A stretch of DNA of 64,000 nt from an uncultured Candidatus Saccharibacteria bacterium. Its GTDB lineage: Bacteria; Patescibacteriota; UBA1384; DTJR01. A model generated the notes under the pieces. It had not been told where the DNA came from, did no database searches, and was given only the letters and a program-made list of their open reading frames with translations. This document shows, piece by piece, positions 11,151-44,514 of the stretch; the first letter of the stretch is position 1; each line of letters begins with the position of its first letter. The DNA is taken from NCBI GenBank assembly GCA_964487045.1, contig CAZAOT010000002.1:53305-117304 (forward strand), in the 5' to 3' direction. A program made the position numbers and the translations under genes.

Positions 11151-11438
11151 TCAGAGCGTAGGCAGTACCACGCGAAAAAACGTGATAGTTGCCATGACAG
11201 CAGGGACGCTGAAGCCAATCAGCGCGACCAGCTTCGTGAGCGTTCGTGGGGTCGCCTGCAGGAACCCTCTCAGCCAACTCGTGAAGACAAAGGCATTCGC
11301 AGAGATCTGCAGGATAGCCGTGGCCAACCTCCACTCCTCATGATTACTGAGGTAGAAATTGGCCAGCACGAACATCGTCAATCCCGTCAGACCTGACAAG
11401 ATCATCAGGATTCTGACACTGCGACTAATTCCGGCCAT
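11151..11438 (-). CDS. Small GC-rich integral membrane protein (3 TM helices)
   Basis: 95-aa hydrophobic ORF in a ~55% GC patch; the overlapping ORF 11089-11334 is judged spurious. Confidence 0.45.
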   Translation of the reverse strand: MAGISRSVRILMILSGLTGLTMFVLANFYLSNHEEWRLATAILQISANAFVFTSWLRGFLQATPRTLTKLVALIGFSVPAVMATITFFRVVLPTL

Positions 11439-11753: not shown

Positions 11754-12317
11754 ATGAGTTCTAAAGAGAGGGTGGGAATATTTATTGATGGCAGTAATCT
11801 GTATCACAAGCTGAAAAATAAAGAAATAAATATTAAGAACACAGGTAGATTTGATTTTTGTGAATTCTGTAATTGGTTAGCACGCGATAGGGAGATTATT
11901 TTCAAAGCATATTATATCGGAGTTGTACGAGCTAAGGCTGACGACAAGAAAGCTCAGAACATGCGAAAAAGCCAACAGAAATTGTTTTCTCATTTATGCA
12001 GCAAATCACAAAATTTTGTTGTTAGACGTGGGTTTATGATGAAAAACGACGGTGCATTTCATAAAAAAGGAGTCGATGTACACCTAGCCACAGACCTATT
12101 AGTTGGTGCGTACGAGGATTTGTGGGATACGGCAATAATCGTTTCCTCAGATACAGACTTAATTCCAGCGATTGAAAAAGTTAAACAGATCGGAAAGAAA
12201 GTCGAATATATCGGCTTCGCTCATCTGCCCAGTTTTGGCCTGCAGAAATATGCATCACTATCCCGGCTCTTGATAAAAGAAGATGTTCAGGCTTTTGAGT
12301 ACAAAAATGAAAGATAA
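11754..12317 (+). CDS. NYN-domain (LabA/DUF88-like) predicted RNase
   Basis: VGIFIDGSNL, GVDVHLATDLL and IVSSDTDL motifs of the NYN/LabA fold. Confidence 0.75.
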   Translation: MSSKERVGIFIDGSNLYHKLKNKEINIKNTGRFDFCEFCNWLARDREIIFKAYYIGVVRAKADDKKAQNMRKSQQKLFSHLCSKSQNFVVRRGFMMKNDGAFHKKGVDVHLATDLLVGAYEDLWDTAIIVSSDTDLIPAIEKVKQIGKKVEYIGFAHLPSFGLQKYASLSRLLIKEDVQAFEYKNER

Positions 12318-12548: not shown

Positions 12549-12809
12549 ATGGATAGAATCGAGAAATTAGAAGAAGAGATTCAGCTGATTAAAAAACGAA
12601 ACACTTCGGTTGAGCTGGATAAGCAGTGGGAAACCAGCTGGACGAGAAGGGGACTGATCGCACTTTTCACTTACTTAGCAATCTCGCTTTATATGCTTGC
12701 AATTAACATCGACCGACCGTTTCTCAACGCCATCGTCCCAACCGTCGGCTTCATGCTCTCAACCTTGACTTTGCCGTGGTTTAAAAAGATGTGGATAAAA
12801 AATAAATGA
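12549..12809 (+). CDS. Small membrane protein (2 TM) heading the RM operon
   Basis: 86-aa ORF with an N-terminal coiled segment and two hydrophobic helices. Confidence 0.45.
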   Translation: MDRIEKLEEEIQLIKKRNTSVELDKQWETSWTRRGLIALFTYLAISLYMLAINIDRPFLNAIVPTVGFMLSTLTLPWFKKMWIKNK

Positions 12810-12902: not shown

Positions 12903-14483
12903 ATGACCGATGATCAAAAAAGAAATTTAGAAAAGCAGCTCTGGGGTGTCGCGAATGTGCTGCGCGGTAAGATGAATGCCGATGAGTACAAGAACTACAT
13001 TCTCGGCTTTATTTTTTATAAGTATCTTTCTGAAAAGCTGGAAAATTTTGTTGATGAAAAGTTGCTAAAAGGCGACGGAATAAAATTTTCAGATATTAAA
13101 GAAAATACAAAAGAGGGGCAAGAATACATTACTAGCATAAAAAAGCGCTGTTTAAACGAACTTGGCTTTTTTCTTATGCCGACCGAATTATTCTCCTACT
13201 TGGTAAAAAAGGGCAAAGGCGATTTGAAAACCGACGGCAATTTCATTCTCGAAGATCTAAAAAGTGTTTTAAACAAAATCGAACAAACATCTCAAAATAC
13301 TGACTCGGAAGATGACTTCAAGGGGTTGTTTGCGGACGTATCACTAACTTCAGACAAACTGGGCAATGGTGAAAATAAAAAGAATGAAACAATTGTCGAT
13401 GTGCTGTCTTTATTAGATGAAATTGACTTCAAACTAGATGATGCAAAAAGTGATCTTTTGGGTGATGCTTATGAATACCTAATCGGCCAATTTGCTGCCG
13501 GTGCTGGCAAAAAAGGCGGTGAATTCTACACCCCGGCACAAGTTTCTCGACTTTTAGCCCAAATTGTGACCGAAGGGAAAAGCCGTATCCGCTCTGCATA
13601 TGACGCAACTTGCGGCTCGGGTTCTTTGCTTTTGCGCCTTCGCGAATTTTCTCAAGTAGATGATTATTACGGTCAAGAGCTAAACCCGACAACCTACAAC
13701 CTCGCCCGCATGAATATGATTCTTCACGGCGTTCACTTTGATCACTTCAATATCAAACAAGGCGATACGTTGACAAACGATCTGCATCCGGATCTTAAAG
13801 CCGAAGCAATTGTTGCTAATCCGCCATTTTCTGCTGAATGGAAGGGCGAAAAAGATCCCGCACTTGTCCAGGATGAGAGATTTGCGCAATATGGACGACT
13901 CGCTCCAAATAAAAGAGCTGACTATGCTTTCGTAACTCACATGATTCATCACTTAGCTGATAATGGCATAATGGCAATTTTGCTTCCTCATGGTGTGCTT
14001 TTTGCCGGCTCTGCTAATTTAACAATTCGCCGATATATCATTGAGAAATTAAATTATTTAGATGCAGTAATAGGGTTGCCGGCCAATTTATTTTATAATG
14101 TCGGGATACCTGCATGCATTTTAGTGTTCAAAAAATGCCGCAAACAAGACGGCGATATTCTCTTTATCGATGCGTCACGAGAGTTCGCTAAAGGCAAGAA
14201 TCAAAACCACCTGACAAGCGAAAACCTTGCCAAGATATTTGAAACTTACAAAGACCGCAAAGAAGTCGATAAATATTCGCACAAGGCAACACTCGATGAA
14301 ATCAAAGAAAACGACTTCAATCTAAATATTCCTCGTTATGTCGATACCTTCGAACCAGAACCGGAAATTAACCTCAACGAAGTCGTCACCGAAATCAAAA
14401 AGATCGACACCGACATGATCGAAGTCGATAAAAAAATCACAGAATATTGCAAGGAATTAAATATAAAATCACCTTTTCAATAA
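12903..14483 (+). CDS. hsdM: Type I restriction-modification system methyltransferase subunit
   Basis: HsdM N-terminal domain (LWGVANVLRGKMNADEYKNYILGFIFYKYLSE), AdoMet motif I (DATCGSGSLL) and motif IV NPPF (IVANPPFS). GGGGAGG RBS before the ATG at 12903. Confidence 0.9.
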   Translation: MTDDQKRNLEKQLWGVANVLRGKMNADEYKNYILGFIFYKYLSEKLENFVDEKLLKGDGIKFSDIKENTKEGQEYITSIKKRCLNELGFFLMPTELFSYLVKKGKGDLKTDGNFILEDLKSVLNKIEQTSQNTDSEDDFKGLFADVSLTSDKLGNGENKKNETIVDVLSLLDEIDFKLDDAKSDLLGDAYEYLIGQFAAGAGKKGGEFYTPAQVSRLLAQIVTEGKSRIRSAYDATCGSGSLLLRLREFSQVDDYYGQELNPTTYNLARMNMILHGVHFDHFNIKQGDTLTNDLHPDLKAEAIVANPPFSAEWKGEKDPALVQDERFAQYGRLAPNKRADYAFVTHMIHHLADNGIMAILLPHGVLFAGSANLTIRRYIIEKLNYLDAVIGLPANLFYNVGIPACILVFKKCRKQDGDILFIDASREFAKGKNQNHLTSENLAKIFETYKDRKEVDKYSHKATLDEIKENDFNLNIPRYVDTFEPEPEINLNEVVTEIKKIDTDMIEVDKKITEYCKELNIKSPFQ

Positions 14484-14484
14484 A

Positions 14485-15042
14485 ATGAAGAACCCCGAAA
14501 ATTACGATGCAATTCGAATTGATGGAATAATTTGGAAGATACAAGGATCTGAAGTTATTCCAATTTGCCCAAAAGATAATTTACAAATGTACCCAGTTAA
14601 TAATTCTCGTTTTGGATGGGAAGATGATATTTATAATCGTAGTAATATTCTAAAATGCCTAGATGATCATTTTGTCGAGATGAAAAGGGGCTATGGTGAT
14701 GAGATACGCTATATCACTGACCGTTTAAAGGCCAGGGATCTTAAAAATATTAAAATTTTAAACCTTGATGATGAAGCTATGCCGATTGCAAAAGCAAATT
14801 CGAAAACAACCGATAATAAATATTCGGCAACTATTCAAGTAATGGAATCAAAGCGTGGATTGCAGGTTGTCGTTTACGCTGGAAAAAAGGGTGGCAAAAA
14901 TACACAAATTTTCGTAGAGCCGGAAGCGAAAAAGATGAGTTTTGATCATAATGATGCACACCCCAGTGAAATCTTTACTGAAATTACTGCGAAATTTCAA
15001 GACGGTACTTCCAGCACAATTAAAAAAAATGACAAAAATTAA
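14485..15042 (+). CDS. Hypothetical protein embedded between hsdM and hsdS
   Basis: 185-aa ORF starting 1 nt after the hsdM stop and overlapping the hsdS start by 12 nt; no recognisable motif. Confidence 0.5.
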   Translation: MKNPENYDAIRIDGIIWKIQGSEVIPICPKDNLQMYPVNNSRFGWEDDIYNRSNILKCLDDHFVEMKRGYGDEIRYITDRLKARDLKNIKILNLDDEAMPIAKANSKTTDNKYSATIQVMESKRGLQVVVYAGKKGGKNTQIFVEPEAKKMSFDHNDAHPSEIFTEITAKFQDGTSSTIKKNDKN

Positions 15043-16255
15043 CACCCCAAAACTTAGATTCAAGGAATTCACTGACGAGTGGCAAGAAAAAAAGCTCTGC
15101 GATGTTTTGTTGTGTATTGTGGATAATCGTGGAAAAACACCTGGATTATCCAGCAGGGGAATTCCCTTGATAGAAGTAAATGCAATGGGTGCAAAGAAAG
15201 TTGATTATTTTGGTATCAACAAATATGTCAGCGATGAAACTTATGAAAAATGGTTTAGAAAGCATATTTCAGAGGGAGATGTATTATTCAGCACGGTCGG
15301 AAAGACAGCGGTATGTTCTACTTATAGCGGGGACAAAAAAGCTGCAATTGCTCAAAATATTGTTGGCCTGAGAGCAAATCATCAAAATTCTGCAAACTTT
15401 TTATATTATTTATTAATTGAACCTAGTAATAATAATAAATTTAAGAAAATAGAAATGACTGCTGTTCAGCCAAGCGTTAAAGTTTCTCAAATGATTCACC
15501 TAAAATTTAATCTGCCTCAGAAGCCCGAGCAGCAAAAAATTGCTGATTTTTTAGGAGCGGTGGATGAGAAGATTGAAAAATTGGAAGAAAAGAAAAAGGC
15601 ATTTGAAAAATACAAAAAAGGCATTATGCAGGCAATTTTCAGCCAAATGATTCGTTTCAAAAAACCCGACGGCTCAAATTTTCCGGATTGGGAAGAAAAG
15701 AAATTAGGAGAAATTGGTGAATTTTATCGTGGCCACAGCTACACGGCTGCTAACGTTAAAGTCGAGGGTTTCCTTGTGCTTAGGTCAAATAATATCCAAG
15801 GAAATAAATTAATAATCAATCGCGATCTTCAATTTGTTAACAAGCCTTTTGGTAAACAAATAGCGCTGAGAAAAGATGACATAGCAATATGCATGGCAAA
15901 CGGTAGTAAGCAACTGGTCGGCAAATCAGCTGTGTATGATGGGGATTACAACGGTCCCGCTACAGTTGGCGCATTTTGCTCAATTTATCGATCAAAATGT
16001 TTATTAGCCAAATATTTATTTGAATTGTCAAAGTACGACCGGGAGATTGAACTTCTCCTAAGCGGCACCAACATCAACAATTTAAAAAACTCGGATTTAG
16101 CGAGTATAGGATTCAAATTACCCACATCATTTGAAGAACAAGAAAAAATTGCAGAGTTTTTGTTTACGTTAGATAATAAAATCAATTTAATAAATAGCCT
16201 GCTGGAGCAGACAAAACTTTTCAAAAAATCATTGCTGCAAAGGATGTTTGTATGA
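15031..16255 (+). CDS. hsdS: Type I RM specificity subunit with two target-recognition domains
   Basis: N-terminal PKLRFKEFTDEWQEKKL, central conserved coiled region (QQKIADFLGAVDEKIEKLEEKKKAFEKYKKGIMQAIF) and a second half with the same architecture. The ATG at 15031 is the likely start. Confidence 0.85.
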
Positions 16256-16515
16256 AACCCGAAAACTATGAGCAGCTAAATACGGTTCATTTAGATGACC
16301 TTGATCGTCTGTTGAATTCATGTGGCATAAATTCAGAATACAAACAAAAAAAGGTTAAGTGCAAATTTTGCAAAAACACAATCGACAGTAATAATGTTTA
16401 TTCTGTATTCAAGGATTCAGGTTCTTACAAATTAATATGTGACCGACCAGAATGTATTCAGTCACTACTACAACTTGTTAATGAGCGGAAGAAAAAGGAG
16501 TGCGGTAATGAATGA
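16252..16515 (+). CDS. Small Cys-rich (zinc-ribbon-like) protein embedded in the RM operon
   Basis: 87 aa, CKFCKN...CDRPEC. The ATG overlaps the hsdS stop (ATGA) and the ORF overlaps the next ORF by 8 nt. Confidence 0.4.
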   Translation: MKPENYEQLNTVHLDDLDRLLNSCGINSEYKQKKVKCKFCKNTIDSNNVYSVFKDSGSYKLICDRPECIQSLLQLVNERKKKECGNE

Positions 16516-17617
16516 TGCTTGGAAGTATTTATCGGGATTTGGTTCAGGAACATTTATTACAATAGTTATTGCGTATATCCTTTTTAAGAACCCCGAGGTC
16601 GTCAAGAAATGGGGTGCAATATTCTACGATCTTCTATCAAGAATATTTGATAAGTATAAATATAAATCCGAAAAGTATAGAATCGAAACAAAGCTCAATA
16701 GCTTCGTTGATGATCTCTCTAGAGATTCCGACATCGATCCAACTAAAGTAAGGATTCAATGGGCGGCTAGAGAGGAGGATGAGAAATGTTTAGTTAATGA
16801 TAATGACGTAATTATTGTTATGCGCGATAGAGAACACAAACATAGAAACTTTGTTCACGCAGCATATTTTTTTACATCCAACATGCTGCTCTGGAGAACA
16901 AAAAGACACATTTCAAAAAAACAAGGGCAAGCGATCGATATATACACAGCAAAAAAAATCATAGAGAAAGACCCTGTTTCGCTAAGGATTTATTTAGAGA
17001 ATTATTTTCAGCCACTTCTTGAAGATGCTGACGTTAATAAGTTGGTAAAAAAATTCGTCGAAATTGATAAGTCGGGATTTTATACTAATATTCTTCTAAC
17101 TGAATTATCTTCCCTTGGTTATAAAACACTTTTGGACGCAAAGGACAGCGACATCGTAGTTGAGGCAAAACTTCTCATTGAATTTCTCTATAATTTTGCA
17201 AACCGCGAACTTGGTGATGAGCAAACTGAAGATACCTTCATCGGAAAATATTCTAGGTGCTCTATTAAGATTGTTTCTACAATTACACTCAGAATCCTCG
17301 ATCGAGTTGAGTCTCCAGCGAAAAGAATTCTCGACGCTTTTTCCAGAGGTCTAGAAAATGTGTACATTATTGGACCTTACGGTGAATATGGCAAGGTTTT
17401 TATTGACAAAGTAATAGATAAGGTAATTTCATCAAATGAAAATCTGGTAGTTTGTCAAAAAAGAAAATTTACTGGCTGTATTAAAAAGGATGGCGAGAAG
17501 ATTTCGATATTAACATATTTTGCTCATATTCAGAATCCTAAACAGATATCCTATTTAATTACTGATGATATGACAGAGAGAATTGAAAAATTTAAAACTG
17601 AGGCTGTTGAAAAATGA
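16508..17617 (+). CDS. Hypothetical ~370-aa protein with N-terminal TM helix, embedded between hsdS and hsdR
   Basis: GGAG RBS 8 nt upstream of the ATG at 16508. N-terminal hydrophobic helix (FGSGTFITIVIAYILF). No P-loop or known nuclease motif seen. The stop overlaps the hsdR ATG (ATGA). Confidence 0.5.
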   Translation: MNDAWKYLSGFGSGTFITIVIAYILFKNPEVVKKWGAIFYDLLSRIFDKYKYKSEKYRIETKLNSFVDDLSRDSDIDPTKVRIQWAAREEDEKCLVNDNDVIIVMRDREHKHRNFVHAAYFFTSNMLLWRTKRHISKKQGQAIDIYTAKKIIEKDPVSLRIYLENYFQPLLEDADVNKLVKKFVEIDKSGFYTNILLTELSSLGYKTLLDAKDSDIVVEAKLLIEFLYNFANRELGDEQTEDTFIGKYSRCSIKIVSTITLRILDRVESPAKRILDAFSRGLENVYIIGPYGEYGKVFIDKVIDKVISSNENLVVCQKRKFTGCIKKDGEKISILTYFAHIQNPKQISYLITDDMTERIEKFKTEAVEK

Positions 17618-20409
17618 CAACACAATCCGAATTACAACTTGAAAATACATTAGTCGAGCAAATGCAGCGGTTGGGGTTTGAGTCGATTACAATCGATGGC
17701 GTTGATGCATTGGTTGCAAATCTCAAAACTCAACTCGAAAAATTTAATCAAATAAAATTTTCCGATGCAGAGTTTGCGCAAATTTTGAATCATTTAAACA
17801 AAGGCGATCGATTCCAGAAAGCAAAGACTCTGCGCGACCGATTTATCGTTCGCCGAGATGATGGTGAGACATCGTTCATTCGATTCTTTAATATGGATCA
17901 GTGGTGCAAAAATGAGTACCAAGTTGCAAGGCAGATCACGCAAATTGGCAAATATGAAAACCGCTATGATGTAACTCTTTTGATCAATGGCTTGCCTTTA
18001 GTGCAGATTGAGCTAAAGCGCCGTGGAATGGAAATGAAAGAAGCGTTTAATCAAATCCAACGCTACCACAAACACTCGTTTACTGGAACATTATTTGAGT
18101 ATGTTCAGATTTTTGTTATCTCAAATGGCGTTAACACTAAATACTTTTCAAATAACCCAAACCAATCGTTCGAACAAACTTTTTTTTGGACCGATGAGAA
18201 GAATGAGAAGATAACTAGACTGGAAGATTTTGCCAAGTTATTTCTAGAAAAGTGTGCGGTATCCAAATTCATTGCCGAGTACATTGTACTCGCCGAATAC
18301 CATAAAATCCCATTGGTTTTGCGACCGTATCAGTACTACGCAGTAAAAGAAATTGAATCGCGAGTTAAGGAATCAAACAAAAACGGTTACATCTGGCATA
18401 CCACCGGCTCGGGGAAGACTTTGACATCATTTAAAGCCAGCCAAGTACTCTCAGGAATTCCAGAGGTAAAGAAAGTTTTGTTCGTAGTTGACCGCAAGGA
18501 TTTAGATATTCAAACGACCAAGGAATTCAATTCATTTTCCGACGGCTCGGTGGACGGAACCGATAACACTCGGCATTTAGTTAGCCAGCTAGAGGATAAA
18601 AACCGCAAGCTAATCGTTACAACGGTTCAGAAACTTGATATTGCCATTGGCCGAGAAAGTTATTTGAAAAAGCTGGAATATTTGAAAGATGAAAAAGTAG
18701 TTATCATTTTTGACGAATGTCACAGAGGTCAGTTCGGTCAGACGCATGCGAGAATTAAATCATTTTTTAAGCGCGCGCAACTTTTTGGTTTTACTGGCAC
18801 GCCGATTTTTGCTGAAAATAATGTTGGCGGAGTAACAACGGCCGATGTTTTCGATGAATGCTTGCATCGCTACATCATTACCAATGCGATTTCTGATAAT
18901 AATGTTCTGGGGTTTGCGGTTGAGTATGTAGGCAAATACAAACAAAAGGATAGCGATGTGGTTGATAAAGATATTTTTGCAGATAGTATGGTGGAGGGAA
19001 TAAATACTCGGGAAGTTTTGGAAAGTGATGCGCGGGTTGAAAAGATTGCGGAATATGTGTTGCAAGACTGGAAGCGAAAGACCAAAAATGGAAAGTTCAA
19101 TGCATTCTTTGCAGTTTCGAGTATTGAGATATTAAAGAAATACTACAAGATTTTATCTGCCAAGAAGCCAGATGATTTTAAGATTGCTACAATTTTTACA
19201 TATCAGGCCAACGAAGATGAAGTCATTGATTTGGACGTTGACGCATTTCCAGAGGAGGGCGAACCGGTCAATCAGCATTCGCGCGATTTCTTGGAGAGCT
19301 GTATTAAAGATTACAATGCATTATATTCGACTAACTTTTCAACTGACCGATTTTATGACTATTACCGAGATTTGCAGCAAAGAATTAAAAAGCGAGAAGT
19401 TGATTTAGTTTTGGTCGTAAATATCTTTTTGACTGGTTTTTATAGCCCTCGCTTAAATACTCTATATGTCGATAAAAACTTACGCTATCACGGGCTGATT
19501 CAGGCATATTCGCGAACAAATCGTTTGCTTGATTCCGATAAGCCGCATGGCAATATTGTTTCGTTTAGGAATTTGAAAGAAGCGACAGATAAGGCGCTGG
19601 CACTTTATGGCGACGAGAATGCAAAAGAAATTGTTTTCAAAAAGCCGTACAAGCAACAGAAAAAGGAATTTGAAGTAAAGCTTGTTGGACTCCGGGAGAA
19701 GGTGCCGACCGTTGAGTCGGTTGATGGACTAAAAAGCGAGGATGAGTTAGCTGAATTCGTTAAATCGTTTCGTGATCTACTTAGAGTTAAATCGTCGCTG
19801 GAGACATTTGCCGAATTTTCATTTGCTGATTTAGGTATTTCTGAACAAGAATTTTATGATTATCAAAGTAAATATTTGGATATATATGACGAAAGAAAAG
19901 AACATGGGCAAGGGCCTGAATTGATTCTTGATCAAATTGATTTTGAGTTAGAACTGACAATTAGAGATGTGATCAATTATGACTATATAATTATGCTGAT
20001 TGCTGGACTAAAGAATATAACTTCGGATCGATTGAGAGAAAAGAAGGCTGAGGATATTTTGCGAATGTTTGATCGAGATGTAAAGCTCAGAAAAAAGAAG
20101 GATCTAATAAAGAAATTCATTGAAGAAAATTTGCCAAAGATCGACAAGGCAGAGAGCGTTGAGAAAGCGTTTGGTGAATTTTGGGCAAACGAAAGATCGA
20201 AGGTTTTGCGAGATTTGGCAAGCGAAGAAAATATTCCGGTTGAAAATATCGAGGAGTTGGTAGGTGAATACTTATATACACAAAAATTACCGAAAGATCA
20301 GGAAGTTGCCGACATTCTGCCAGCAGGAACTAAGTTCTTAAAGCAGCAAGGCCTGATTGATCGAATTAAAGGTGTGATTGAGAAAATTGTAGATGTGTTT
20401 GAGTGGTAA
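17614..20409 (+). CDS. hsdR: Type I restriction enzyme R subunit (SF2 helicase/endonuclease)
   Basis: Walker A HTTGSGKTLT, DEAD-box-like FDECHRGQ, and 931 aa typical of HsdR. Confidence 0.9.
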   Translation: MTTQSELQLENTLVEQMQRLGFESITIDGVDALVANLKTQLEKFNQIKFSDAEFAQILNHLNKGDRFQKAKTLRDRFIVRRDDGETSFIRFFNMDQWCKNEYQVARQITQIGKYENRYDVTLLINGLPLVQIELKRRGMEMKEAFNQIQRYHKHSFTGTLFEYVQIFVISNGVNTKYFSNNPNQSFEQTFFWTDEKNEKITRLEDFAKLFLEKCAVSKFIAEYIVLAEYHKIPLVLRPYQYYAVKEIESRVKESNKNGYIWHTTGSGKTLTSFKASQVLSGIPEVKKVLFVVDRKDLDIQTTKEFNSFSDGSVDGTDNTRHLVSQLEDKNRKLIVTTVQKLDIAIGRESYLKKLEYLKDEKVVIIFDECHRGQFGQTHARIKSFFKRAQLFGFTGTPIFAENNVGGVTTADVFDECLHRYIITNAISDNNVLGFAVEYVGKYKQKDSDVVDKDIFADSMVEGINTREVLESDARVEKIAEYVLQDWKRKTKNGKFNAFFAVSSIEILKKYYKILSAKKPDDFKIATIFTYQANEDEVIDLDVDAFPEEGEPVNQHSRDFLESCIKDYNALYSTNFSTDRFYDYYRDLQQRIKKREVDLVLVVNIFLTGFYSPRLNTLYVDKNLRYHGLIQAYSRTNRLLDSDKPHGNIVSFRNLKEATDKALALYGDENAKEIVFKKPYKQQKKEFEVKLVGLREKVPTVESVDGLKSEDELAEFVKSFRDLLRVKSSLETFAEFSFADLGISEQEFYDYQSKYLDIYDERKEHGQGPELILDQIDFELELTIRDVINYDYIIMLIAGLKNITSDRLREKKAEDILRMFDRDVKLRKKKDLIKKFIEENLPKIDKAESVEKAFGEFWANERSKVLRDLASEENIPVENIEELVGEYLYTQKLPKDQEVADILPAGTKFLKQQGLIDRIKGVIEKIVDVFEW

Positions 20410-20739: not shown

Positions 20740-21915
20740 TTATTCGCCCGAAACAGCTTTCTCAATAACCCCCAAAGTCCTCTTTGCCGCATCCTCCCAA
20801 TCAAACAGCTCTAATCTCTTTTTTCCATTTGTGATAAGTTCACCTCTAACCTTTTCATCCGTCAAAGCAGTGTAGAGCATTTCAGCAAGCTCCTTCTCAT
20901 CTTCTGTCTTATGAAGCAGGGCGGCTTTGCCTGTAATTTCCGGAATCGAAGTACAATCTGACGCGACTATCGGAATCTCGCAAGCCATTGCTTCTACAAG
21001 TGGCATACCAAATCCTTCGAATTTGGAAGGGAAGGCAAAGACTTTGGCAAAGCGCAGATAGTCAGCCATAATTTCATCCGGAATATATCCCGGCTCAATT
21101 ATGTCTTTTCGAATATTTTCATCAAGCTTATTTTTTTCACCTTCTATTTCTTCATATAAATACCCAGGTCGTCCGGCCAGCACTAGCTTTGTAGATAAAT
21201 CAGGGTGTTCACTTCGTAAAATTCCAAATGCTTTAATCAAGGTCTTAATATTTTTCTTAGCCTCGAGTCTGCCAATGAAATAGATATATTCACCAAGCTT
21301 CTTAATTGGTTCTGGAGCTTCACCTTTTTTCGCAGTGAACTTTTCCTTATCAAAACCATGATAGATAACGGTAATTTTTTTGGGATCAGCATTGTAGAAT
21401 TTGATAAGATCCTTCTTGGTTGCCTCAGAAATAGCGATAATCTCAGTCGCGTGCTTCACGGCGAAGCTCATTGACCAGTTATGGTAGAACCGTTCGAGTG
21501 GAGTATAGAGTTCGGGAAAATATCTAAATCCAACATCATGAAGAGTTGTGACAATTTTTTTAGGATGAAAAATCGGTATCGTGTGAGCAGGTTCAAATAG
21601 AACGTCGGGTTTATTTTGAATTAGCTCCCATGAAAGTCTGATCTGGCTCCATAGTTTTGGAAAAGGCATCACTTTATTTTCGGCATTATCTGATTTCGAT
21701 AAATAGCTAAGAGGAGTCTTGGAATAAAGTCTAAACAGTAGATCCTTCGACTTCCGGCCTCGCTCAATATCTCGGTCGGAACGCTCAGGATGACGCGACT
21801 GCGTCATTTTTACTAGATTTTTAATAATCTCTTGCGAGTAATATTCCGTCCCAGTTTTTTGCGCCACATTTGATCTTGATGCGTCGATACCTATAACAAA
21901 TTTTTTATTTTCCAT
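20740..21915 (-). CDS. GT-B glycosyltransferase, family 4-like
   Basis: C-terminal EGFGMPLVEAMACEIPIVASD (E-X7-E region) of retaining GT4 enzymes. Confidence 0.8.
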   Translation of the reverse strand: MENKKFVIGIDASRSNVAQKTGTEYYSQEIIKNLVKMTQSRHPERSDRDIERGRKSKDLLFRLYSKTPLSYLSKSDNAENKVMPFPKLWSQIRLSWELIQNKPDVLFEPAHTIPIFHPKKIVTTLHDVGFRYFPELYTPLERFYHNWSMSFAVKHATEIIAISEATKKDLIKFYNADPKKITVIYHGFDKEKFTAKKGEAPEPIKKLGEYIYFIGRLEAKKNIKTLIKAFGILRSEHPDLSTKLVLAGRPGYLYEEIEGEKNKLDENIRKDIIEPGYIPDEIMADYLRFAKVFAFPSKFEGFGMPLVEAMACEIPIVASDCTSIPEITGKAALLHKTEDEKELAEMLYTALTDEKVRGELITNGKKRLELFDWEDAAKRTLGVIEKAVSGE

Positions 21916-44099: not shown

Positions 44100-44514
44100 G
44101 TTACGATTTAGGGGGATTACCTCCGACAATCGAGCATGTTTGACAGGGAGGGTTTTTCCTTGAAAAAGCTTATGGAGTTCTTGTTCACCTGGAGGCAGAG
44201 CCGGATCATCCGGCGGCGTCTCCGGCAGTACTGCCCGCGAATCGCGGAGCAGAGCGTCAAGCGTGTGTTCGACCTGTTTCCTGGCTGCTAGCCGCCCCTG
44301 GAGCCGACACCTTCGCCGCAAGGTGACTGTGTCGGCTCCGCCACACTTTCAAGCGTTGACATCAAACGCTTTTTTTAGTACTATATTTCTAGTCAAAGAC
44401 AGCTGGGACCGAAAGGTTTAAACCATAACCCTGCCGAGACAAAACAAATTGGATTTTATTGTTTTGTTTACGACGTCTTTGCACGTCGTATTTATTTATA
44501 AAAAGTAATTAAGG
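44100..44514 (+). promoter_or_regulatory. Candidate ribosomal protein L10 leader (rplJ 5' UTR autoregulatory RNA) with attenuator
   Basis: ~250-nt GC-rich patch in an AT-rich spacer. Strong helices: GCCGACACCTT-CGCCGC-AAGGTG..GTGTCGGC and AAGCGTT-GACATCA-AACGCTT plus T7 (44351-44377), then ACGACGT-CTTTGC-ACGTCGT just before rplJ. Confidence 0.4.

What the first reader, a model, noticed from the sequence alone, without database searches (positions are those of the whole stretch)
14485..17617. Type I RM operon with three unknown ORFs translationally coupled inside it (candidate RM-linked defence module)
The operon is tightly packed, with 1-12 nt gaps or overlaps at every junction: hsdM(12903-14483), ORF185(14485-15042), hsdS(15031-16255), ORF87 zinc-ribbon(16252-16515), ORF370(16508-17617), hsdR(17614-20409). 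The ATGA overlaps fall at hsdS/ORF87 and at ORF370/hsdR. ORF370 has an N-terminal TM helix and no P-loop, so it is not a PrrC/RloC anticodon-nuclease homolog, although it occupies the classic PrrC position between hsdS and hsdR. ORF87 is Cys-rich. Genes inserted within Type I RM loci are frequently abortive-infection or anti-restriction-triggered effectors. None of the three matches a family I recognise.
Basis: partly seen in the sequence, partly recalled or inferred. Interest (0 to 1): 0.7.

Follow-up and report, generated by a model that had tools for sequence, protein, structure and literature searches.

The report
Unknown gene cassettes inside restriction operon
A bacterial DNA-restriction operon carries two unrelated hitch-hiking units of unknown function, one of which is a widespread, never-described gene pair (a tiny zinc-binding protein plus a membrane-anchored protein with a nucleic-acid-binding fold) that sits where related operons keep known anti-virus genes, so it is a good candidate for a new defence system.

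Summary
The layout is real: hsdM, ORF185, hsdS, ORF87, ORF370 and hsdR form one tightly packed operon. One correction: hsdS starts at 15029, not 15031.

The three unknown ORFs are not one module.

**ORF87 + ORF370.** This is an autonomous two-gene cassette.
- An ORF87-like gene lies directly upstream of an ORF370-like gene in all 12 other loci examined. None of those 12 is a Type I RM operon.
- Seven of the 13 distinct contexts touch RM or defence genes.
- A few relatives carry S1, KH or LOTUS domains at the C-terminus.
- Its superfamily has about 1,060 clusters at 50% identity. It has no Pfam, PADLOC, NCBIfam or PDB sequence match; one weak PHROG hit (E 7.8e-4) covers 48 residues.
- In sister operons the hsdS–hsdR slot holds Shedu, Abi_C, HEPN or AAA_13 genes.

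**ORF185.** This is a separate solo family.
- It has a Zn-ribbon plus a β-domain with no fold match.
- Only 5 of 62 metagenome loci lie next to hsdM, yet these copies fall in at least five separate lineages.

**Verdict.** ORF87–ORF370 is a plausible new Abi/TA-like candidate defence cassette. Its function is untested. Embedding of defence genes in RM operons is already a known principle.

The parts
12903..14483 (+). hsdM, the Type I RM methyltransferase subunit (host operon)
   Evidence: Pfam HsdM_N + N6_Mtase (E 3e-105). PADLOC MTase_I (E 5.5e-159).
14485..15042 (+). ORF185: a solo accessory gene. It has an N-terminal Zn-ribbon-like module, one helix, and a C-terminal 7-stranded β-domain of unknown function.
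15029..16255 (+). hsdS, the specificity subunit. The start is corrected to 15029, giving a 14-nt overlap with ORF185.
   Evidence: Pfam Methylase_S with two stretches. PADLOC Specificity_I (E 8e-83). Frame check.
16252..16515 (+). ORF87: a small CxxC...C....C zinc-ribbon protein, the first gene of the conserved two-gene cassette.
   Evidence: Four invariant Cys. 89 homologue clusters. It lies directly upstream of an ORF370-like gene in 12/12 other loci.
16508..17617 (+). ORF370: a membrane-anchored protein, the second gene of the cassette.
   Evidence: 21 close homologues. About 1,062 clusters at 50% identity. AF2 pLDDT 80, pTM 0.75. No Pfam family covers the core in 133 relatives.
16529..16585 (+). 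ORF370 residues 8-26: the N-terminal transmembrane anchor.
   Evidence: Kyte-Doolittle 1.82. A comparable segment is present in 113/124 relatives. Lys-rich sequence follows the helix, so the bulk of the protein is inferred to be cytoplasmic.
16838..17200 (+). ORF370 residues ~111-231: an all-helical core carrying the superfamily-conserved polar residues N114, D144, E199 and E219 (R233 lies just after it).
17249..17542 (+). ORF370 residues ~248-345: an Alba-like β-α-β-α-β-β domain.
17614..20409 (+). hsdR, the restriction/translocase subunit (EcoR124-type C-terminus).
   Evidence: Pfam HSDR_N, SWI2_SNF2, T1R_D3-like and EcoR124_C. PADLOC REase_I (E 4e-293).

Best explanation
An apparently intact family-IC Type I RM operon has acquired two independent accessory units. 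Both are now co-transcribed and translationally coupled with the hsd genes.

Unit 1 is ORF87+ORF370, an autonomous, horizontally mobile two-gene cassette. ORF87 is a small zinc-ribbon protein. ORF370 is tethered to the inner face of the membrane by one N-terminal helix. It carries a novel all-helical core and a C-terminal Alba-like domain, which is presumed to bind RNA or another nucleic acid.

The most likely role of unit 1 is an abortive-infection / toxin-antitoxin-like second line of defence. It sits in the cargo slot where sister operons keep Shedu, Abi_C, HEPN or AAA_13 genes. My inferred mechanism is this: the Alba-like domain (S1, KH or LOTUS in some relatives) recognises a nucleic acid; the helical core and membrane anchor form the effector; the Zn-ribbon partner restrains or licenses it.

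Unlike PrrC, the cassette does not need the RM enzyme, because most copies lie outside Type I loci.

Unit 2 is ORF185, an unrelated solo gene of unknown function. It has been captured repeatedly just downstream of hsdM. Whether it acts with HsdM is open.

Shown: gene order, pairing, distribution, folds, and absence from known families. Inferred: defence function, RNA binding, topology, and the roles of the two partners.
For: Pairing and mobility:
- An ORF87-like gene lies directly upstream of an ORF370-like gene in 12/12 other loci. The junctions are mostly overlaps or gaps of <=11 nt; two are larger, about 60 nt in L019 by tblastn ends and 44 nt in L010 by the gene call.
- Serine recombinases or an IS1595 transposase lie within about 6 kb in L002, L005, L018 and L020.

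RM or defence neighbours in 7 of 13 distinct contexts:
- Window: Type I RM.
- L001: SIR2_2 immediately upstream, plus a Type ISP enzyme, SMODS, CARF and Zeta toxin.
- L010: a Type IIG/ISP-like methylase.
- L014: AAA_15 + DUF4276.
- L016: MvaI/BcnI RM + AAA_13.
- L018: MTase-MvaI/BcnI REase-DUF4145-pair in one tight array.
- L020: recombinase, DUF5677 and Hypoth_Ymh.

Slot equivalence. Related Type I operons carry the following between hsdS and hsdR, or hsdS and hsdM:
- SduA_C in L022.
- Abi_C in L009.
- DUF5343 + HEPN_Swt1 in L084.
- AAA_13 in L098.

Structure:
- The TM anchor is conserved.
- C-terminal S1 (x2), KH, OST-HTH/LOTUS and TPR domains occur in 5 relatives.

Precedent:
- 'Guilt by embedding' yielded 7 validated systems (bioRxiv 10.1101/2024.01.29.577857).
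- TgvAB is a two-gene system embedded in a V. cholerae Type I RM operon (PMC11411939).
Against: - No experiment and no recognisable catalytic motif. The helical core matches nothing, there is no conserved HEPN Rx4-6H, and there is no P-loop.
- The Alba similarity is at fold level only. No Pfam Alba hit was found, and the same fold occurs in SepF, which binds FtsZ rather than nucleic acid.
- Five of 13 contexts look like housekeeping or neutral regions: L002-4, L005, L011-13, L101/2 and L103/4.
- The sample of contexts is small and has no formal background control.
- RNA-binding fusions are rare, 5 of 133 relatives.
- The window operon sits among housekeeping genes, not in a defence island.
- None of the three genes was found in phage or plasmid collections. 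This removes one possible line of support.
Confidence: 0.5

Rival explanations
1. ORF87+ORF370 is a purely selfish toxin-antitoxin / addiction cassette. It has a small upstream antitoxin and a larger membrane toxin. It inserts into variable regions, including RM operons, and gives no phage protection.
For: - It has the classic TA layout: a small upstream gene overlapping a larger downstream gene.
- It occurs autonomously in many unrelated contexts, often near recombinases or IS elements.
- 5 of 13 contexts lack defence genes.
Against: - There is no homology to any known toxin or antitoxin.
- It repeatedly sits tightly inside RM operons of three different types (window, L016, L018). That pattern is more typical of defence cargo.
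- TA and Abi functions are not mutually exclusive.
Confidence: 0.2
2. ORF370 is a housekeeping, membrane-tethered RNA-binding or processing factor, analogous in layout to RNase Y (TM helix, long helices, RNA-binding domain). ORF87 is its cofactor. Its presence in the RM operon is incidental.
For: - The architecture is a TM helix, long helices, then Alba/KH/S1 domains.
- Some copies sit next to RNase HII, L19, BipA, RRM protein and ribosomal-protein genes.
Against: - Synteny is absent. Every distinct context differs, which is unlike core genes.
- Many copies lie beside RM, SIR2, CBASS-like, AAA_13/15 genes and recombinases.
- A pattern-limited scan of one genome for each of 185,579 species returned only 3 loci of the close family.
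Confidence: 0.1
3. All three ORFs are dedicated accessory subunits or regulators of this Type I enzyme, for example controlling restriction versus modification. They would then form one RM-specific module.
For: - There is tight translational coupling at every junction.
- ORF185 follows hsdM directly in 7 distinct operons, and these copies fall in at least 5 separate lineages of its family tree.
Against: - The ORF87+ORF370 pair occurs in 12 other loci, none of which has Type I genes.
- The pair never occurs there with an ORF185 homologue.
- Sister operons with ORF185 carry entirely different cargo in the hsdS-hsdR slot.
- About 90% of ORF185 homologues have no hsdM nearby.
Confidence: 0.08

Closest known systems
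PrrC / RloC anticodon nucleases embedded in Type I RM operons
   Same: - The position is inside a Type I RM operon next to hsdS and hsdR, co-transcribed.
- The presumed logic is a second-line, possibly RNA-directed, response linked to restriction.
   Different: - ORF370 has no ABC-ATPase/P-loop domain and no PADLOC PrrC or AAA_13 hit.
- It has a TM anchor and an Alba-like domain instead.
- It needs a Zn-ribbon partner gene.
- PrrC is almost exclusively RM-embedded, whereas this pair is mostly not embedded.
Embedded defence candidates (HEC/PDC systems of Payne et al. 2024; TgvAB in Vibrio cholerae Type I RM)
   Same: - These are multi-gene cassettes nested in Type I RM operons that also exist as non-embedded copies.
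- TgvAB is likewise a two-gene unit between hsd genes.
   Different: - There is no sequence match to any PADLOC v2 model. That library includes PDC-S candidate models, which were seen to hit other proteins, while the three ORFs gave none.
- TgvAB is a GmrSD-like DNA nuclease. Nothing nuclease-like is recognisable here.
- Anti-phage activity is untested.
Alba / Sso10b superfamily (Alba, SpoVS, Rpp20/25, Pop6/7, IF3-C, SepF)
   Different: - Similarity is at fold level only (9-16% identity, no Pfam Alba hit).
- Here the domain is the tail of a 369-aa membrane protein, rather than a stand-alone ~90-aa chromatin or RNA-binding protein.
RNase Y-type membrane-anchored RNA-binding proteins
   Same: The overall layout is an N-terminal TM helix, long helices, then an RNA-binding-type domain. 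Some relatives carry KH or S1 domains.
   Different: - There is no HD or other catalytic domain and no sequence similarity.
- The distribution is patchy and mobile, and the gene is paired with a Zn-ribbon partner.

Membership tests
Type I RM, family IC (host operon) | HsdR with HSDR_N, SF2 motor and an EcoR124-type C-terminal domain; HsdM with HsdM_N + N6_Mtase; HsdS with two target-recognition regions | tested here: met
   Pfam hits (EcoR124_C E 1.3e-54; N6_Mtase E 3e-105; Methylase_S with 2 stretches). PADLOC REase_I, MTase_I and Specificity_I.
PrrC/RloC anticodon nuclease | N-terminal ABC-type ATPase with a Walker A P-loop | tested here: not met
   No [AG]x4GK[ST] motif in ORF370 or ORF185. 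No AAA_13 or PrrC model hit in Pfam or PADLOC at E <= 1.
PrrC/RloC anticodon nuclease | Location inside a Type I RM operon adjacent to hsdS/hsdR | tested here: met
   ORF87/ORF370 lie between hsdS and hsdR, with ATGA overlaps on both sides.
Alba superfamily (ORF370 C-terminal domain) | β-α-β-α-β-β fold superposable on Alba | tested here: met
Alba superfamily (ORF370 C-terminal domain) | Sequence-profile membership (Pfam Alba PF01918) | tested here: not met
   No Alba hit for the window protein at E <= 1, nor for 133 relatives at E <= 0.01.
Alba superfamily (ORF370 C-terminal domain) | Binding of DNA or RNA | not testable with these tools
   The only indirect support is that 5 relatives carry S1, KH, OST-HTH or TPR domains C-terminally.
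HEPN RNases | A conserved Rx4-6H motif in an all-helical domain | tested here: not met
   The only Rx4-6H string in ORF370 (R106...H112) is not conserved in the family consensus. No HEPN Pfam hit.
Type II toxin-antitoxin modules | A small upstream gene overlapping a larger downstream gene, inherited as a pair in varied contexts | tested here: met
   The pair is conserved in 13/13 loci. Junctions are mostly overlaps or gaps of <=11 nt, with two larger gaps.
Type II toxin-antitoxin modules | Toxicity of one partner, neutralised by the other; homology to known toxin or antitoxin families | not testable with these tools
   Toxicity cannot be assayed here. As for homology, none was found in Pfam, NCBIfam or PADLOC, and the single weak PHROG hit is to an unknown-function family.
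Embedded phage-defence candidates (PADLOC HEC/PDC) | A match to a HEC/PDC model | tested here: not met
   No PADLOC hit at E <= 1 for any of the three ORFs. The library does contain PDC-S models.
Embedded phage-defence candidates (PADLOC HEC/PDC) | Genetically embedded in a known multi-gene defence system, with non-embedded homologues elsewhere | tested here: met
   Embedded in the window. Non-embedded copies in L001-L020 and L101-L104.
Embedded phage-defence candidates (PADLOC HEC/PDC) | Demonstrated anti-phage activity | not testable with these tools
   This requires plaque assays.

The most novel reading that the evidence does not exclude
ORF87+ORF370 founds a widespread (~1,000 clusters at 50% identity), so far unnamed class of membrane-anchored, nucleic-acid-sensing abortive-infection systems. 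Its helical core would be a new effector domain. The Alba-like sensor would be exchangeable for S1, KH or LOTUS modules. The small zinc-ribbon protein would gate activity. The system would be especially relevant to CPR/Saccharibacteria, whose immune repertoire is poorly known. Separately, ORF185 could be a new accessory factor acting with HsdM.
Probability: 0.3. Interest if true: 0.75.

Novelty: new variant of a known kind. Interest (0 to 1): 0.55.

Why it matters
Genes nested in RM operons have proved a productive source of new immune systems (Payne et al. 2024). More than half of such embedded genes remain unexplained.

This cassette belongs to a large protein superfamily with no Pfam domain, no solved relative and no PADLOC model. 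It recurs next to Type I, II, IIG and ISP restriction systems in at least two phyla.

If it is a defence system, it would add:
- a new effector/sensor architecture: membrane anchor, novel helical core, and an Alba-like domain;
- a handle on immunity in ultra-small Saccharibacteria.

If it is not, it still defines a widespread membrane-tethered protein family, probably RNA-binding, that is worth naming.

The analysis also shows that 'three coupled unknown ORFs' should not be read as one system. Comparative context splits them into two units.

Tried and rejected
**Family libraries.**
- Pfam, PADLOC and NCBIfam gave no meaningful hit for the three ORFs; PHROGs gave one weak 48-residue hit for ORF370 to an unknown-function family (E 7.8e-4).
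- Scanning 133 ORF370 relatives and 31 ORF185 relatives against Pfam gave no recurrent family.

**PDB sequence-profile searches.** A1, A6 and A3 gave nothing credible.

**Fold searches.**
- ORF370 helical core: only generic helical-repeat hits, plus insignificant Schlafen hits (prob 0.2-0.5). I rejected these as evidence.
- The afdb50 fold library was not available.

**Tests for specific ideas.**
- ORF87-ORF370 gene fusions among 149 representatives: none found.
- HEPN motif and P-loop: absent or not conserved.
- A single insertion ancestor for RM-embedded ORF185: rejected, because embedded copies are scattered over the NJ tree.

**Phage and plasmid carriage.**
- No relatives of any of the three in IMG/VR pattern scans.
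- No ORF370 relatives in INPHARED (window query only) or PLSDB (three query proteins).
- A broader alignment was too diverse for a pattern scan.

**Neighbourhood analyses for ORF185.**
- Conserved neighbour: none; the largest neighbour cluster covers 5 loci.
- I tried 144 genes around 15 non-RM ORF185 loci as a background control with PADLOC. This gave scattered hits (AbiLi, PycC, RT UG17, PDC-S05/07/23) that cannot be assigned to loci, so the result is not usable as a clean control.

**Other.**
- Rfam found no RNA element in or next to the operon.
- The promoter/terminator scan is not above shuffled expectation for promoters, and shows no convincing internal + strand terminator.
Full report
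**1.

The + strand between 12.9 and 20.4 kb carries six consecutive ORFs. The outer and middle ones are an apparently complete Type I RM system:
- hsdM (12903-14483): HsdM_N + N6_Mtase.
- hsdS (15029-16255): two Methylase_S stretches; PADLOC Specificity_I E 8e-83.
- hsdR (17614-20409): HSDR_N, SWI2_SNF2, T1R_D3 and EcoR124_C, i.e. family-IC type.

The ATG is at 15029, which gives a 14-nt overlap with ORF185. The other junctions are as described:
- a 1-nt gap between hsdM and ORF185;
- ATGA overlaps at hsdS/ORF87 and at ORF370/hsdR;
- an 8-nt overlap between ORF87 and ORF370, preceded by an AAGGAG Shine-Dalgarno.

The simple scan shows no convincing internal + strand terminator. The flanks are housekeeping genes: sortase, NUDIX, TruD, DHODH, a glycosyltransferase, MreB and a MurA-like gene. 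The operon is therefore an isolated insertion, not part of a large island.

**2. None of the three inner ORFs belongs to a described family.**

Pfam, PADLOC and NCBIfam give nothing meaningful. PHROGs gives one weak 48-residue hit of ORF370 to an unknown-function family (E 7.8e-4). The PADLOC copy contains the PDC-S 'embedded candidate' models, so these genes are not among those published candidates.

All three are real genes, each with many full-length homologues:
- ORF370: 21 close homologues.
- ORF185: 32.
- ORF87: 89.

**3. ORF87 and ORF370 are one unit; ORF185 is not part of it.**

In every other locus recovered for the ORF370 or ORF87 families, an ORF87-like gene lies immediately upstream of an ORF370-like gene. 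This holds for 12 of 12 loci. Most junctions are overlaps or gaps of <=11 nt, with two larger gaps.

The pairing includes very distant pairs. The 354-aa partners in L014 and L016 are only ~27% identical to the window family, yet align at hhalign probability 100%. None of these loci is a Type I RM operon, and none places an ORF185 homologue next to the pair.

An exhaustive profile search finds 1,062 representative clusters (50% identity) at E <= 1e-3, and 813 at E <= 1e-10. The pair is therefore a widespread, autonomous cassette. The close family was found in three 'Candidatus Saccharibacteria' MAGs. More distant pairs occur in a Bacteroidota MAG and in a 6.3-Mb genome.

**4. What the pair looks like.**

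ORF87 has four invariant cysteines (CxxC...C....C), a conserved N-terminal 'AVHxDDLxRLL' helix and a basic tail.

The ORF370 model is usable (pLDDT 80, pTM 0.75). Its parts are:
- a hydrophobic helix at residues 8-26, conserved in 113/124 relatives;
- two long helices;
- a β-hairpin;
- six helices (111-231) carrying the superfamily-conserved polar residues N114, D144, E199 and E219, with R233 just after;
- a C-terminal β-α-β-α-β-β unit.

The similarity to Alba is structural only. No Pfam Alba hit appears in the window protein or in 133 relatives.

Five relatives carry further C-terminal domains: S1 (two proteins, up to four copies), KH, OST-HTH/LOTUS and TPR. The first three are RNA-binding modules, which supports nucleic-acid binding as the job of this end of the protein. 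That is an inference.

There is no P-loop and no conserved HEPN motif.

**5. Why defence is the leading hypothesis.**

(a) Seven of the 13 distinct contexts touch RM or defence genes:

| Locus | Neighbouring RM/defence genes |
|---|---|
| Window | Type I RM operon |
| L001 | SIR2_2 directly upstream; Type ISP enzyme, SMODS, CARF and Zeta toxin around |
| L010 | Type IIG/ISP-like methylase |
| L014 | AAA_15 + DUF4276 |
| L016 | MvaI/BcnI RM and an AAA_13 protein (Bacteroidota) |
| L018 | MTase-MvaI/BcnI REase-DUF4145-pair as one tight array (Saccharibacteria) |
| L020 | Serine recombinase, DUF5677 and Hypoth_Ymh |

(b) The slot is a cargo slot. Related Type I operons carry the following between hsdS and hsdR, or hsdS and hsdM:
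- SduA_C (Shedu) in L022;
- Abi_C in L009;
- DUF5343 + HEPN_Swt1 in L084;
- an AAA_13 protein in L098;
- YfbU plus unknowns in L088.

(c) Embedding in RM operons is an experimentally validated predictor of defence function (Payne et al., bioRxiv 10.1101/2024.01.29.577857; TgvAB, PMC11411939).

Against this: five contexts look neutral or housekeeping, the sample is small, there is no formal background, and no catalytic motif is visible.

I therefore put 0.5 on an Abi/TA-like defence role, 0.2 on a purely selfish TA cassette, and 0.1 on a housekeeping membrane-tethered RNA factor.

**6. ORF185.**

Distribution:
- Of 80 metagenome loci, only five have hsdM upstream. That is 5 of 62 with at least 400 nt of upstream sequence.
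- No neighbour is conserved, and the flanking genes are heterogeneous.
- Yet in seven distinct operons it lies directly after hsdM: window, L006/7, L009, L022, L084, L088/9 and L098.
- These copies fall in at least five separate places of the family tree.

Recurrent capture, or an ancestral link with hsdM, is therefore likely. Its function is unknown.

**7. Comparison and verdict.**

The phenomenon, accessory defence cargo embedded in a Type I RM operon, is known (PrrC, TgvAB, HEC/PDC). The gene families here are not.

ORF370 is not a PrrC/RloC member, because the defining ATPase is absent. It is not a HEPN protein. It is an Alba-superfamily member only at fold level.

I rate it a new variant of a known kind, with moderate interest (0.55). 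It is a well-supported candidate for experimental testing, not a demonstrated system.

Noticed in passing
window 11754-12317 (+) and 12549-12809 (+): A NYN-domain (PIN-like RNase fold) gene (Pfam NYN E 2.9e-20) and an 86-aa ORF that looks like a two-TM protein by eye lie just upstream of hsdM on the same strand. They might belong to the same acquired block as the RM operon.
   Followed up: partly
window 11151-11438 (-): A 95-aa hydrophobic ORF sits in a 49% GC patch, inside a region of 33-39% GC. It has no Pfam hit. The only Rfam hit there is far below threshold.
   Followed up: partly
window 20740-21915 (-): The glycosyltransferase convergent with hsdR also hits Pfam 'GT4-conflict', the family 4 glycosyltransferase of conflict systems (E 1.5e-10), besides the generic GT1/GT4 models.
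   Followed up: no
window 44375-44505 (+): Ribosomal protein L10 leader (Rfam RF00557, 44.7 bits, just above the gathering score).
   Followed up: no
L006 2040-3197 and 4981-5907; L007: In a Saccharimonadales Type I operon, a Fic/DOC gene sits between hsdM and the ORF185 homologue. An unknown 308-aa gene with no Pfam hit fills the hsdS-hsdR slot.
   Followed up: partly
L088 6495-8158 and 9252-10866; L084 6404-7980: Other ORF185-containing Type I operons carry up to five embedded genes. Several have no Pfam hit (159, 166, 202, 256 and 266 aa). These are further unexplored embedded candidates.
   Followed up: partly
L016 3993-7685 and L018 7497-11122: The ORF87/ORF370 pair sits next to an MvaI/BcnI-type Type II RM system in two different phyla, and the M/R gene order is opposite in the two. 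In L018 a DUF4145 gene lies between the REase and the pair.
   Followed up: partly
L001 8691-11074: A SIR2_2 gene lies 44 nt upstream of the ORF87-like gene in a defence island. The island also holds a Type ISP enzyme, SMODS, a CARF-like gene and Zeta toxin. Whether SIR2 forms a three-gene unit with the pair was not tested.
   Followed up: no
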